Positions 26,821 to 31,171 of a DNA stretch of 64,000 nucleotides are shown here, in pieces. Below the pieces are notes generated by a model. It had not been told where the DNA came from and ran no database searches. It worked only from the letters and a program-made list of their open reading frames with translations. Made by a program: the position numbers and the translations under genes. Origin of the DNA: a virus. The DNA lies in IMG/VR virus record IMGVR_UViG_3300027744_000013, positions 44,087 through 108,086 of that record. One strand, written 5' to 3'. Position 1 is the first letter of the stretch. Each line of letters starts with the position of its first letter.

Positions 26821-26895
26821 TGGTCCGGCGTAACGGAATCGAACCGCTATTTAGGGAGTAGAAATCCCCTGTATTATCCATTATACGAACGCCAG
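26821..26895 (-). tRNA. tRNA-Arg(TCT)
   Basis: Acceptor CTGGCGT/ACGCCGG, anticodon stem GGGGA/TCCCT with loop TTTCTAC, GGTTCGATTCC, encoded CCA. Confidence 0.88.
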
Positions 26896-26896
26896 A

Positions 26897-26975
26897 TGGT
26901 AGGCCCTCCCAGAGTCGAACTGGGCACCAATGGATTATGAGTCCACTGCTCTAACCAAGCATGAGCTAAGGGCCT
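26897..26975 (-). tRNA. tRNA with CAT anticodon (Ile2-like or Met)
   Basis: Acceptor AGGCCCT/AGGGCCT, loop CTCATAA, T-loop TTCGACT, CCA; resembles bacterial tRNA-Ile2. Confidence 0.88.
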
Positions 26976-28725: not shown

Positions 28726-28869
28726 TTAGACTCCAGTGTGTAAAGGATTGCGTTTACGAAGGTGTGCCAAAGCGGCCTCTTTGCTGTCAAAGCGACCCGA
28801 GATGGGCGTTTGATGGCTACCACGCACAATGAACCAACCTGCTAACAGGCTATTGAAGATGACTTTCAT
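28726..28869 (-). CDS. 47-aa hypothetical protein
   Basis: SD GGAG; MKVIFNSLL..; not in the ORF track. Confidence 0.55.
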   Translation of the reverse strand: MKVIFNSLLAGWFIVRGSHQTPISGRFDSKEAALAHLRKRNPLHTGV

Positions 28870-28870
28870 C

Positions 28871-29137
28871 TTAGACTCCCATTTCGTAAAAGGTTACTGA
28901 AGGATCAATGCTGAGCAGTTCTTCTGCACAACGGCTAAGGAACTTAACTCTGCGGCTTACTTCTGCACGGGGCAGTTCGCCATCGCATGTTAGGTTCTCT
29001 GGGCTCATGTCGCTGTCAATGCGATCTGCAATCTTTTGACGATCAGCGGCGTTGAGCAGGCTGAGTGGCTTGTTGCCAAACAAGGCACCCCATCGATTGA
29101 TACCATCTACATACTGTTCTATGGTTGCTATGTTCAT
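28871..29137 (-). CDS. Early hypothetical protein (SPENLTCDGE)
   Basis: Own promoter/RBS. Confidence 0.7.
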   Translation of the reverse strand: MNIATIEQYVDGINRWGALFGNKPLSLLNAADRQKIADRIDSDMSPENLTCDGELPRAEVSRRVKFLSRCAEELLSIDPSVTFYEMGV

Positions 29138-29200
29138 AAGTTTCGCTCCTTATCTGTTTGTGTAAGTGTATATTATACTGCCAACTACCCAACTTGTCAA

Positions 29201-29508
29201 TAGTAAAGAGGAACCATTGTGCATCTGTCTCTACCCTATGCAACGTCTACATAGGGCCTGCACGGTCATTACTACTAGATTGTCCACCGCAAGTCCGGAT
29301 CCACATGGCCTAAGCCATTGATCCTGTTTCATGCTCCTGGACTTGACCAACCCCCGTCGGTATTGTCATCATCCCAGTCGCCTAGTGGTCTAGTTAACCT
29401 CAATTTGGGAGGCCGAGTCTACAAACTCGCTTCGTATCCCTTGGTTCCAACCCTTTTTGCATTTCTGCGTGGGTTCTTACATTCGAGGATCGCCTTTATC
29501 TTTTACTT
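29201..29508 (-). ncRNA. Candidate ~300-nt highly structured ncRNA
   Basis: Own promoter (29515-29543), no credible ORF, at least 9 nested helices. Confidence 0.6.
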
Positions 29509-29531
29509 GTTTCTATTATAGTCTCTTTCGC

Positions 29532-29792
29532 CTACTTCGTCAATCGGAACTTGTCAATAACCCTTTTTGCTTCAAGGTTATCAGGAAGCATACCATCTTC
29601 GGCCATGCCCTTACGATAAGTCTCAACCAGTTCCATCTTCATCATCTCTACAATGCTCTCGCACTCGGCCTTTTCCCGCTTGGGCAAGGTAGCAATGAAT
29701 CGTTCTGCATCACTCCACTCTTCAATGCTCCACAGAATGTCTGCTAGAACCTTTTGGCGGGCATTGAGGCCCTCTAATGTGATCTCAACCAT
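29532..29792 (-). CDS. Hypothetical protein
   Basis: SD AAGGA. Confidence 0.65.
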   Translation of the reverse strand: MVEITLEGLNARQKVLADILWSIEEWSDAERFIATLPKREKAECESIVEMMKMELVETYRKGMAEDGMLPDNLEAKRVIDKFRLTK

Positions 29793-29931
29793 TGTCGCGT
29801 CCTTTGTGTTTGGGGTTGCGTTTAAATTTTACCTTGCTCTGCACAACCTTCTGCTTGAAGGGTGTGTCCTTGCAGAACAGGACAATGTGTGCCCTGACCT
29901 GCTTGGGTAGTTTGATTGTAATCTTCATCAT
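29785..29931 (-). CDS. Small basic hypothetical protein
   Basis: Own promoter, SD AGGAG; ends KRNPKHKG. Confidence 0.6.
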   Translation of the reverse strand: MMKITIKLPKQVRAHIVLFCKDTPFKQKVVQSKVKFKRNPKHKGRDNG

Positions 29932-30205: not shown

Positions 30206-30435
30206 TATGCGTTCTCCATCTCTTTGCGTTGTTCAACTTCTGCTACCAACTCCTCGTCTGAGAAGTTACCGTAGCCCTTAAATCCATCTTCCAGGTATGT
30301 CCAAAGCAGTTCTAGACCCCCGTCGTCTGTAGACATTATATAGTCAAAGTCGCTTTGGGTCAAGTAGTCAACGGCTGTTTCTCTATCGAATAGCTTGTCT
30401 TTCGCACTCGCCTTTTTGCTTTGGAATCCAGTCAT
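30205..30435 (-). CDS. Acidic hypothetical protein
   Basis: TAATG coupling. Confidence 0.6.
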   Translation of the reverse strand: MTGFQSKKASAKDKLFDRETAVDYLTQSDFDYIMSTDDGGLELLWTYLEDGFKGYGNFSDEELVAEVEQRKEMENA

Positions 30436-30902
30436 TATGCGTACTCCCCTTCTGTGAGGAACGCTTCTTCAAGCGTCACATAGTTGTCGCTGTGGTCTGC
30501 TACAAACCAAACAGCCTTGCCGTTGACGTTGCGCAGGATGTACTCAAATTCTTCGTACTGGTGATTGGCAACATAGTCTGCATAGTCTTTGAACTTCTTA
30601 GCAGGGCACTTCTCGTTGCGATCACGTCCGTAGAATGTACACATATTCTCTACCAGTGCTTCGTGTGCATCGCGTTCCTCTTTGGTTTCCAATTGGAATG
30701 AGCTAAACGGATGTTGGACGCCAATGGTAGGGCGCAGGCTAGACAAGTCACCCAAGTCAATCAGCCTGCGCAGTTTGAACGGGTCACTGTAATGTTCAGC
30801 AAGGATCTTGCCGTTGTTGCTCAAGTAACCGTCCCAGTGGCAGTATACCTGCTCTACTGTACCGTCTGCGTATTCAAGTGCGATTGTTGAACGTGTTCCC
30901 AT
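30435..30902 (-). CDS. Conserved-looking phage early protein (YCHWDGY)
   Basis: Own promoter; MGTRSTI..YCHWDGY. Confidence 0.75.
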   Translation of the reverse strand: MGTRSTIALEYADGTVEQVYCHWDGYLSNNGKILAEHYSDPFKLRRLIDLGDLSSLRPTIGVQHPFSSFQLETKEERDAHEALVENMCTFYGRDRNEKCPAKKFKDYADYVANHQYEEFEYILRNVNGKAVWFVADHSDNYVTLEEAFLTEGEYA

Positions 30903-30958
30903 TTTAGCTCCTAGTGTGTTTGTGTATGTGTATATTATAGCGCCTTTTGGGCACCCAG

Positions 30959-31171
30959 TCAATCAGCCCAGCATTCCGTGGCCAAGCGTGTGGTTATTGT
31001 TTCACCACCAATGTAGTCACCTGAGAAGCCATGCTTGTTCTCCAGCACAAGAGCCACGCCAGCATAAGTCTTCTTGATCTCTATGATCTTGGCCCATTGC
31101 TCGATGTCGCTCTTGAAGGCCACGTTGTCGCCTACCTTAACTTCTACATCATGTACCATGCAAGTCTTCAT
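30959..31171 (-). CDS. Early hypothetical protein
   Basis: Own promoter/RBS. Confidence 0.7.
   Translation of the reverse strand: MKTCMVHDVEVKVGDNVAFKSDIEQWAKIIEIKKTYAGVALVLENKHGFSGDYIGGETITTRLATECWAD

What the first reader, a model, noticed from the sequence alone, without database searches (positions are those of the whole stretch)
29201..29508. Unannotated ~300-nt multi-branched ncRNA with its own early promoter
Seen: a consensus promoter (TTGACG-17-TATAAT, 29515-29543) fires into 300 nt with no credible RBS/ORF. The region is packed with nested helices: closing GGAACCA/TGGTTCC (29210/29442), GTGCA/TGCAC (29219/29259) enclosing CCCTATG/CATAGGG, ACTAGA/TCTAGT (29274/29389), CAAGTCC/GGACTTG (29290/29339) enclosing GGATC/GATCC and ATGGC/GCCAT, CCTC/GAGG, CGAGT/ACTCG, and AACCC/GGGTT with a GCA-GAAA-UGC tetraloop. 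I could not match it to tmRNA, RNase P or group I intron signatures. Inference: a novel structured phage RNA deployed as an early cassette (anti-defence decoy, ribozyme or scaffold).
Basis: partly seen in the sequence, partly recalled or inferred. Interest (0 to 1): 0.8.

Follow-up and report, generated by a model that had tools for sequence, protein, structure and literature searches.

The report
Composite folded RNA of giant lake phages
This gene-free stretch of an uncultured giant freshwater phage is a real gene for a folded non-coding RNA made of two separately conserved parts; the larger part belongs to a family that these phages carry once per genome, it is in no RNA catalogue, and its job is unknown.

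Summary
The feature is real, but it is not one 300-nt fold. On the minus strand a consensus promoter (29543-29515) drives two separately conserved RNA modules.

- **M5 (about 29496-29410):** a roughly 90-nt leader next to the promoter. In relatives it also precedes ordinary genes.
- **Core (29401-29208):** a roughly 190-nt RNA built on two three-way junctions.

I found 62 distinct core homologues in IMG/VR giant-phage contigs. 85.9% of pair cells form standard pairs, against 37-44% in slid controls. 53 of 60 pairs show compensatory changes. No homologue has a conserved ORF. There is one copy per record, including a record that is 96% complete. Rfam 15 gives no match for the window or for ten divergent relatives. 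A model of the family does not match T4 rnaC/rnaD or the nearest cultured jumbo phages.

The proposed closing helix and CAAGTCC/GGACTTG do not, and CCTC/GAGG competes with the conserved closing stem P1.

Function is inferred. Most likely it is a processed, trans-acting scaffold or decoy RNA that presents two invariant GACG loops to a protein (about 0.35). Ribozyme, self-assembling RNA and cis-leader readings remain open.

This scan had already met the same family in other genomes, and no agent has yet assigned a function.

The parts
29515..29543 (-). Early sigma-70-type promoter TTGACG-17-TATAAT; predicted start near 29508. The stop codon of the upstream 86-aa ORF (29532-29792) lies inside the -35 region.
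   Evidence: Sequence; consensus scan 11/12, with 6 promoter-like sites against 1.7 expected in shuffles.
29410..29496 (-). 5' leader module M5. It is a long irregular hairpin followed by a second hairpin and then GCCU. Helix a: 29492-29486 with 29440-29433. Helix b: 29480-29471 with 29453-29444. Helix c: GCA-GAAA-UGC, 29468-29459. Hairpin d: CGAGU/ACUCG, 29429-29414.
   Evidence: 15 distinct homologues with 85% mean identity, each 10-20 nt downstream of a TTGACA-17-TATAAT promoter. 99.7% of pair cells are paired against 17-44% in slid controls, and 4 pairs covary. In relatives it is followed by the core, by an SD plus unrelated ORFs, or by other RNA plus a tRNA.
29208..29401 (-). Core RNA of the family (~190 nt), closed by P1 (GAGG 29401-29398 with CCUC 29211-29208).
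   Evidence: Covariance-model hit at 29193-29416(-), 163.7 bits, E 1.7e-40. 62 distinct homologues; 85.9% of cells paired; 53 of 60 pairs with changes on both sides; 0 of 500 shuffles reach this.
29274..29394 (-). Domain 1. P2: 29394-29389 with 29279-29274. P2b: 29388-29385 with 29287-29284. These enclose a three-way junction with the conserved strands UAG (29384-29382), AUGAAA (29332-29327) and ACUUGCG (29294-29288).
   Evidence: P2 is 95.3% paired and P2b 100% paired, with types CG/UA/GC/AU. Invariant columns in A3.
29333..29381 (-). P3 arm (29381-29373 with 29341-29333) ending in hairpin P3a (29363-29359 with 29354-29350), which carries the invariant loop GACG (29358-29355).
   Evidence: The P3a stem covaries (for example CG 31, UA 19, GC 7) while the loop stays constant.
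29295..29326 (-). Variable hairpin P4 (CAGGAUC/GAUCCGG). The window carries an 18-nt insert hairpin (29319-29302).
   Evidence: In relatives the tip is a GNRA or UUCG tetraloop or a longer insert. Helix 6.
29264..29273 (-). Conserved junction strand AGUAAUGACC between P2 and P5. UAAU is invariant.
   Evidence: Invariant columns T146-T149 in A3.
29219..29263 (-). Domain 2, type A. P5: GUGCA 29263-29259 with UGCAC 29223-29219. P6: 29256-29249 with 29241-29234, with the invariant loop AGACGUU (29248-29242). Then UAGAGACAGA.
   Evidence: P5 occurs as GUGCA/UGCAC, GUCAA/UUGAC and GUAGA/UCUAC. The innermost P6 pairs are 98% paired with 4-6 pair types. Relatives carry alternative 3'-domain types that keep the loop.
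29172..29200 (-). Next promoter, TTGACA-17-TATAAT, for the 88-aa ORF (28871-29137). It marks the 3' limit of the RNA cassette, and no terminator lies in between.
   Evidence: 12/12 consensus match; no terminator-like site between 29543 and 28852.

Best explanation
What is there. One early transcription unit on the minus strand starts from the consensus promoter at 29543-29515 and makes a composite non-coding RNA. Its first ~90 nt (M5, 29496-29410) are a highly conserved leader next to the promoter, made of two hairpins. This phage group also places M5 in front of ordinary genes. I infer that it acts in cis on its own transcript, either stabilising the 5' end or modifying the polymerase. The following ~190 nt (29401-29208) are the single-copy core RNA of an uncatalogued family.

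The fold. A closing stem P1 is extended in most relatives to a 19-bp or longer stem formed by the flanks. P1 leads to an outer three-way junction with two domains. Domain 1 holds a second three-way junction and a hairpin with an invariant GACG loop. Domain 2 ends in a hairpin with an invariant AGACG(U/G)U loop.

Most likely mechanism (inferred). No terminator follows the core, so it is cut out of a longer early transcript at its closing stem. It then accumulates as a stable RNA and acts in trans as a rigid scaffold or decoy, whose conserved junction core presents the two GACG loops to a host or phage protein early in infection.

Shown: the promoter motif, conservation, covariation, absence of an ORF, one copy per genome, and presence in RNA libraries. 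Inferred: processing, stability, trans action and protein binding.
For: - **Real RNA gene:** 62 distinct homologues; 85.9% of cells paired against 37-44% in slid controls; 53 of 60 pairs changed on both sides; 0 of 500 shuffles reach this. The top mutual-information pairs coincide with the helices. There is no conserved ORF.
- **Copy number:** one per record in six records, including a 356-kb record that is 96% complete.
- **Own promoter:** seen in the window and in nearly all relatives.
- **Cassette behaviour:** the gene neighbourhood varies, and contigs of relatives diverge at 29400 and 29200.
- **Closing stem:** flanks form a continuous 19-bp stem in most relatives, and 17 of its 19 pairs covary. 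This is the arrangement of RNAs excised from precursors.
- **Loops:** two hairpin loops keep GACG while their stems covary freely, which is typical of recognition sites.
- **P4 tip:** it may be GNRA, UUCG or a long insert, so it is peripheral.
- **Expression hint:** RNA-library contigs from four studies cover the locus, and contig depth is higher over 29242-29509 than over the flanks in X10 and X16. This is weak evidence.
Against: - No partner protein is identified. No gene family is consistently adjacent. The phage records hold no Ro60/TROVE, RtcB, reverse transcriptase or RNase III.
- Much of the conservation sits in junction strands (UUA, UAG, AUGAA, GUAAUGA). That pattern fits a ribozyme or ligand-binding core as well as a protein site.
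- The expression data are assembled contigs. DNA carry-over and reads from relatives cannot be excluded, and no RNA ends are mapped.
- The window lacks the long flank stem that most relatives have.
- The phage is uncultured and its host is unknown.
Confidence: 0.35

Rival explanations
1. The core is a catalytic or ligand-sensing RNA. Its conserved junction strands would form an active site or binding pocket, and the variable peripheral stems (P4, alternative 3' domains) would only stabilise the fold, as in group I introns, RNase P RNA or large riboswitches.
For: The invariant nucleotides concentrate in the two three-way junctions (UUA, UAG, AUGAA, GGAG..GCG, GUAAUGA), while helices covary and peripheral elements are swapped. 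The size and complexity fit (~190 nt, 9 helices). No partner protein was found.
Against: There is no resemblance to any known ribozyme or riboswitch model. No pseudoknot or long-range tertiary pair emerged from mutual information. The RNA is not consistently upstream of one gene class, so a classical cis riboswitch is unlikely.
Confidence: 0.15
2. The RNA works with the phage's tRNA and translation apparatus. It would be co-processed with tRNAs and act on tRNAs, their modifying or cleaving enzymes, or the ribosome. One example is a decoy for tRNA-directed host nucleases.
For: In relatives the RNA often lies beside or between tRNA genes: tRNAs flank it in L071, and there are tRNA clusters in L021, L050, L045 and L031. 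L088 has M5 followed by other RNA and a tRNA. The window has tRNA-Arg and tRNA-Met 2.3 kb downstream on the same strand. T4 keeps its two orphan stable RNAs in the tRNA cluster.
Against: The fold is not tRNA-like: ARAGORN and the Rfam tRNA, tmRNA and YrlA models do not hit it. The apparent D-arm-like CCUA/UAGG hairpin is contradicted by covariation that favours P2. In the window it sits among protein-coding early cassettes.
Confidence: 0.12
3. The whole stretch is a long cis-acting 5' leader that controls the downstream early gene (88-aa ORF, 28871-29137) rather than a free RNA.
For: No terminator lies between the promoter at 29543 and the 88-aa gene, so read-through is expected. M5 demonstrably serves as a 5' leader of protein genes in relatives.
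Against: The 88-aa gene has its own perfect promoter directly after the core. The core is followed by different genes, by tRNAs or by other promoters in relatives. Its two ends pair with each other, as in autonomous RNAs.
Confidence: 0.1
4. The core self-assembles into an RNA-only multimer, as recently shown for the phage-associated ROOL and GOLLD RNAs, using its conserved loops for contacts between molecules.
For: It has the same ecological and genomic niche: phage-borne, near tRNAs, and of orphan function (PMC12286853, listed). In type-A members, including the window, the P6 loop AGACGUU contains the self-complementary ACGU.
Against: Type-B members have AGACGGU, which is not self-complementary. 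The RNA is 3-4 times smaller than ROOL or GOLLD, and their Rfam models do not match it.
Confidence: 0.08
5. It is not an RNA gene. The conservation would reflect a DNA-level element (origin, recombination or homing site) or a decayed protein gene.
For: GIY-YIG endonuclease-like ORFs occur within 2 kb in 26 of 58 loci, and the region is mosaic.
Against: Compensatory changes keep base pairs on one strand. The element keeps one orientation relative to a promoter. It has no reading frame.
Confidence: 0.03

Closest known systems
Phage T4 rnaC and rnaD (species 1 and 2 small stable RNAs)
   Same: They are phage-encoded, non-coding, in single copy, 119-139 nt against ~190 nt here, lie in or near the tRNA gene region, and are still of unknown function.
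   Different: There is no sequence or structure similarity: the family model scores 7 bits or less across the T4 region. T4 rnaC ends in a tRNA-like T arm, which this RNA lacks. The window copy has its own promoter and sits among early protein-coding cassettes.
ROOL and GOLLD 'ornate' RNAs of phages and prophages
   Same: They are large, complex-folded orphan RNAs carried by phages, often beside tRNA genes, and were found by comparative genomics.
   Different: They are 3-4 times larger, and their Rfam models do not match. They form RNA-only cages (PMC12286853). Nothing here shows multimerisation.
Bacterial Y RNAs (YrlA) with Ro60/Rsr
   Same: The 5' and 3' ends pair in a long stem that closes a branched body, and some are phage-borne.
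   Different: The YrlA model does not hit the RNA; its weak hits in L021 and L050 lie on tRNA genes. No TROVE/Ro60 or RtcB gene occurs in five records. There is no tRNA-like module.
SRP RNA Alu domain
   Same: Two hairpins with constant loops flank a conserved GUAAU-like strand.
   Different: No SRP model matches at E up to 10. The GUAAUGA strand lies in a three-way junction rather than between the two loop-bearing hairpins. No loop-loop covariation can be tested because both loops are invariant.
HK022 put RNA, lambda nut sites and 5' stabiliser hairpins (comparison for the M5 leader only)
   Same: M5 is a two-hairpin RNA element placed within 10-20 nt of an early promoter's start site. It is highly conserved in sequence and placed ahead of different downstream cargo.
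   Different: No sequence relation is known or was tested, and the antitermination or stabilising activity is only inferred. I found one copy in the 96%-complete record, not one per early operon.

Membership tests
Any Rfam 15 family | Covariance-model match at or near the gathering score | tested here: not met
   At gathering thresholds the whole window gives only 2 tRNAs. Region 29100-29600 gives nothing at E up to 10. Ten divergent family members give no hit over the RNA at E up to 10.
T4 rnaC / rnaD | Sequence or structure homology to the T4 RNAs | tested here: not met
   Model R1 searched with filters off over T4 69500-74500 gives only noise of 7.3 bits or less, none of it a full match on rnaC or rnaD.
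T4 rnaC / rnaD | Location inside the tRNA cluster and a tRNA-like 3' arm | tested here: not met
   The window copy is 2.3 kb from the two tRNAs. No T-arm is present. Some relatives do lie next to tRNAs.
tmRNA | tRNA-like domain plus a tag reading frame | tested here: not met
   ARAGORN finds none in the window, and there is no Rfam tmRNA hit.
RNase P RNA | Conserved regions CR-I and CR-V forming the P4 pseudoknot | tested here: not met
   No RNase P model hit. The window's AAGUCC is not conserved in the family. The mutual-information scan shows no long-range pseudoknot.
Group I intron | P3-P9 core with a P7 guanosine site, inserted in a host gene | tested here: not met
   No Rfam intron model hit. 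The element is intergenic, with its own promoter and no exons.
Y RNA / Ro60 RNP | Ro60 (TROVE) partner gene and a Ro-binding stem | tested here: not met
   PF05731 is absent from G000-G004, while the control genomes respond. The YrlA model does not hit the RNA. A host-encoded Ro60 cannot be excluded.
Retron msr/msd or other RT-linked RNA | Reverse transcriptase gene in the same element | tested here: not met
   PF00078 is absent from five records.
6S RNA | Long rod with a central open-promoter-like bubble | tested here: not met
   No Rfam 6S hit. The covariation-supported fold is branched, with two three-way junctions.
ROOL / GOLLD | Match to the family models; ~580-800 nt; homo-oligomeric cage | tested here: not met
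   No model hit, and the size is ~190 nt. Oligomerisation is not testable with these tools.
Uncatalogued core-RNA family of giant freshwater phages (this report's model R1) | Full-length match to the family model, including P1, P2/P2b, GACG loop, GUAAUGA strand and AGACGKU loop | tested here: met
   The window matches at 29193-29416(-) with 163.7 bits over model positions 1-212. All named motifs are present.
Processive antitermination leader (put-like), for M5 | Cis action on RNA polymerase that suppresses downstream terminators | not testable with these tools
   Only its position (10-20 nt after early promoters) and its two-hairpin shape are seen.

The most novel reading that the evidence does not exclude
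The ~190-nt core is a new class of functional RNA, either a ribozyme or an RNA that directly reprograms a host machine such as RNA polymerase, the ribosome or an immune sensor. It would be universal and single-copy in a whole clade of giant freshwater phages, with M5 as a new cis-acting element next to the promoter that licenses its transcript.
Probability: 0.15. Interest if true: 0.9.

Novelty: categorically new. Interest (0 to 1): 0.6.

Why it matters
Giant phages of lakes turn out to carry, once per genome, a complex folded RNA with strong evolutionary support and no counterpart in RNA catalogues. RNAs of this size and conservation have in the past proved to be ribozymes, riboswitches or cores of RNA-protein machines. 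A new class expressed from an early promoter would point to an RNA-based step in the takeover of the host that no cultured model phage shows.

The family now has enough members and enough defined parts (two invariant loops, conserved junctions, swappable peripheral domains) for direct biochemical tests.

Caveats: the function is unknown, and this scan has met the same family in other genomes. A 2023 catalogue of 10,006 candidate viral RNAs (PMC10690425) may list it without a function. I could not check this because its supplementary files are not held.

Tried and rejected
- **INPHARED phages:** blastn of 28800-29900 gave no match.
- **Cultured relatives:** the nearest cultured jumbo phages by DnaB helicase (PA5oct, Atu_ph07, Phosso) gave no family-model hit at E up to 1.
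- **T4 rnaC/rnaD:** no similarity.
- **Partner by gene neighbourhood:** ORFs within 3 kb of 58 loci were clustered. The commonest neighbour, a 78-aa protein with a hydrophobic, membrane-like sequence, occurs in 35 of 58 loci and is absent from the window. No RNA-related family emerged.
- **Partner by family search:** TROVE, RtcB, RVT_1 and RNase III were absent in five records.
- **Extra tertiary pairs or a kissing loop:** the mutual-information scan gave only the nested helices plus correlations tied to the 3'-domain type. The two GACG loops are invariant, so covariation cannot test a contact between them.
- **tRNA-like D-arm reading of CCUA/UAGG** (RNAalifold): rejected, because members with CCAACU/AGUUGG keep P2 but break that hairpin.
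- **By-eye resemblances:** SRP domain IV, the RNase P CR-I motif, the group I R element, the hammerhead core, the 23S GTPase-centre RNA and 16S helix 45 all rest on nucleotides that are not conserved in the family or that have no model support.
- **Metatranscriptome contigs:** they show presence in RNA libraries but cannot give ends, strand or level.
- **Fremin et al. 2023 supplements:** not held.
- **M5 in four further partial records:** BLAST found no match. These records are fragments, so this says little.

Full report
**Setting.** The window is part of a 108-kb IMG/VR virus record that CheckV estimates to be 29% complete. Relatives reach 280-364 kb, so this is an uncultured giant phage. 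Runs that hold the stretch are mostly freshwater metagenomes. By DnaB-like helicase the nearest cultured phages are Pseudomonas phage PA5oct (56% aa), Agrobacterium phage Atu_ph07 and Sinorhizobium phage Phosso. Genes around the finding run on the minus strand. An 86-aa ORF (29532-29792) lies upstream and an 88-aa ORF (28871-29137) lies downstream.

**The observation.** On the minus strand TTGACG-17-TATAAT lies at 29543-29515. A perfect TTGACA-17-TATAAT lies at 29200-29172, in front of the 88-aa gene. No terminator-like site lies in between. The 308 nt fold only modestly better than shuffled sequence (z = -2.38; antisense -1.46). The case therefore rests on comparison with relatives. Rfam 15 gives only two tRNAs for the whole window at gathering thresholds, and nothing at E up to 10 for 29100-29600. 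ARAGORN finds no tmRNA.

**Homologues.** The 88-aa protein brought in 80 related loci out of more than 580. BLAST and nhmmer showed that the non-coding stretch recurs in them, always ORF-free and on the same strand, but in pieces:
- the 3' 190 nt in many loci;
- the 5' 110 nt separately, at 93% identity, in loci with a different continuation.

A scan of IMG/VR with the pattern GGTTACCTAN6TAGGN{16,34}GACGG gave 75 more loci. Together these make 62 distinct sequences.

**The core RNA (29401-29208).** I aligned 46 members, wrote a structure from the visible compensatory changes and built a covariance model. The model finds 82 copies (62 distinct) in the loci held. In the window it finds exactly one copy, at 29193-29416(-), with 163.7 bits.

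On the model-based alignment:
- 85.9% of pair cells are standard pairs, against 37-44% when partners are slid by 1-3 columns.
- 53 of 60 pairs show changes on both sides.
- No shuffle out of 500 reaches the observed values.
- The best mutual-information pairs are the same helices.

The fold, with window coordinates, is as follows.
- **P1:** GAGG 29401-29398 with CCUC 29211-29208.
- **Junction:** UUA.
- **Domain 1:** P2 (29394-29389 with 29279-29274) and P2b (29388-29385 with 29287-29284) lead to a three-way junction. Its strands are UAG, AUGAAA and ACUUGCG.
  - The P3 arm ends in hairpin P3a, with the invariant loop GACG (29358-29355).
  - P4 is variable. Here it carries an 18-nt insert.
- **Junction:** the strand AGUAAUGACC (29273-29264).
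- **Domain 2:** P5 (29263-29259 with 29223-29219) encloses P6, with the invariant loop AGACGUU (29248-29242).
- **Junction back to P1:** AAUGGUU.

In most relatives the flanks extend P1 into a continuous 19-bp stem (GUUAGAAAAGAGUUAAAGG with CCUUUAGUUCUUUUCUAAC), and 17 of its 19 pairs covary. The window lacks this extension because the 5' module sits there instead. Domain 2 comes in at least three types (A, B and others) that all keep the AGACGKU loop. P4 tips are GNRA, UUCG or long inserts.

No reading frame is conserved. The median longest sense ORF is 24 aa, lengths are spread evenly mod 3, and 1 of 62 sequences has an SD plus ATG.

**Copy number and spread.** There is one copy in the window's record and one in each of five other records, among them a 356-kb record that is 96% complete. 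PA5oct, Atu_ph07 and Phosso have none at E up to 1. The T4 tRNA region, which holds rnaC and rnaD, gives only noise. Ten divergent members scanned against Rfam at E up to 10 give nothing on the RNA. The same scan shows tRNA genes beside the RNA in several loci.

**The 5' module M5 (about 29496-29410).** nhmmer finds it in 20 loci, 15 of them distinct, at 85% mean identity. It is always 10-20 nt downstream of a TTGACA-17-TATAAT promoter. What follows it varies:
- the core directly, in ten loci;
- a 46-aa ORF and then the core;
- an SD and ORFs of unrelated families, with the core 2-7.5 kb away;
- other non-coding sequence and a tRNA.

M5 folds into a long irregular hairpin capped by GCA-GAAA-UGC, plus a second hairpin (CGAGU/ACUCG). 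99.7% of cells are paired against 17-44% in slid controls. Every variable stem position is compensated, at four pairs. Variation is small, so this support is moderate. One copy lies in the 96%-complete record, 220 nt upstream of the core. BLAST finds none in four partial records.

Eight of the ten proposed helices are real. Six lie in the core (P2, P4 and its insert, P5, P6) or in M5 helix d. The AACCC/GGGTT pair with its GAAA-capped inner helix makes up M5 helices b and c. The proposed closing helix GGAACCA/UGGUUCC would tie M5 to the 3' end of the core. It is perfect only in the subgroup whose M5 reads GGAACC, it uses nucleotides of a covarying M5 helix, and it is absent where M5 and the core are apart. 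CAAGTCC/GGACTTG uses the 3' strand of the covarying P3 and is not conserved. CCTC/GAGG competes with P1.

**Expression.** Six runs on record as RNA hold the stretch. In the four that I laid, contigs cover the locus. Contig depth over 29242-29509 is 249-264 against 46-59 on the flanks in X10. In X16 it is 98.9 over 29242-29375 against 16-22 on the flanks. These are assembled contigs. Depth is one figure per contig, relatives add to it, and DNA carry-over is possible, so this is only a hint. More useful are the loose ends. Contigs that match the core continue at 29400 with the flank-stem leader of other family members, and they diverge again at 29200. This marks the core as a cassette shared by co-occurring phages.

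**Function.** Nothing assigns one directly.
- Gene neighbours vary.
- The records hold no Ro60, RtcB, reverse transcriptase or RNase III.
- The early promoter, the single copy, the paired ends, the two invariant identical loops on freely covarying stems and the swappable periphery fit best with a processed, stable, trans-acting RNA that presents the loops to a protein. I commit to this reading at about 0.35.
- Heavy conservation in the junctions keeps a ribozyme or ligand-binding reading alive (0.15).
- tRNA adjacency in relatives supports a tRNA or translation-linked role (0.12).
- The missing terminator supports a cis-leader role (0.10).
- The ACGU palindrome in the type-A loop supports ROOL-like self-assembly (0.08).
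- M5 most likely acts in cis on whatever transcript it heads, through 5' stabilisation or polymerase modification. This is inferred from its position only.

**Earlier notes of this scan.** The same core family was reported from other genomes as an uncatalogued RNA of about 190-200 nt carried once per genome by giant lake phages. One note describes a composite of separately conserved modules. Another proposes a similarity to the SRP Alu domain for an RNA with GACG loops. I re-derived the family, the copy number and the composite nature independently. I found no model support for an SRP relation and no extra covarying loop contact in this alignment.

**Verdict.** This is a real, strongly supported, uncatalogued RNA family plus a second conserved leader element. 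The function remains open.

Noticed in passing
window 28871-29137 (-): The 88-aa ORF downstream of the RNA belongs to a very large family in these phages: more than 580 viral contig stretches encode relatives at 58-85% identity. It has no PHROG match. Function unknown.
   Followed up: partly
L031:1400-1470 and the same region of L028, L045, L010, L097: In many relatives the -10 box of the RNA's promoter sits in the middle of a perfect 10-bp inverted repeat (GTTCATGTGC TATAATAA GCACATGAAC). It looks like an operator overlapping the promoter. The window's promoter lacks it.
   Followed up: no
window 30647-30729: Contigs of three metatranscriptome runs from different studies skip 81 nt (27 codons) inside the 175-aa ORF 30435-30962(-). 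This is probably an in-frame strain variant rather than splicing (table 5).
   Followed up: no
window 26821-26975 (-): tRNA-Arg(TCT) and tRNA-Met(CAT) lie head to tail, 2.3 kb downstream of the RNA on the same strand.
   Followed up: no
loci L024, L027 and 24 others, about 2 kb upstream of the core RNA: Small GIY-YIG-like ORFs (~112 aa, motif IYELIVNGKNYIGVT) recur near the RNA in 26 of 58 loci. They may drive the mosaic shuffling of this early region, as segB does in the T4 tRNA cluster.
   Followed up: no
L087:3372-3750 (same as L012:119-500): Here M5 is followed by about 280 nt of other ORF-free sequence and then a tRNA gene with a long variable arm. This suggests a further uncharacterised RNA module in that phage.
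   Followed up: no
35 of 58 related loci, about 300 nt upstream of the core RNA: A 78-aa protein with a hydrophobic, membrane-like sequence (MSYRHIDDALQWTGAAAIIAGHVLN...) is the commonest immediate upstream neighbour of the RNA. It is absent within 3 kb in the window.
   Followed up: no
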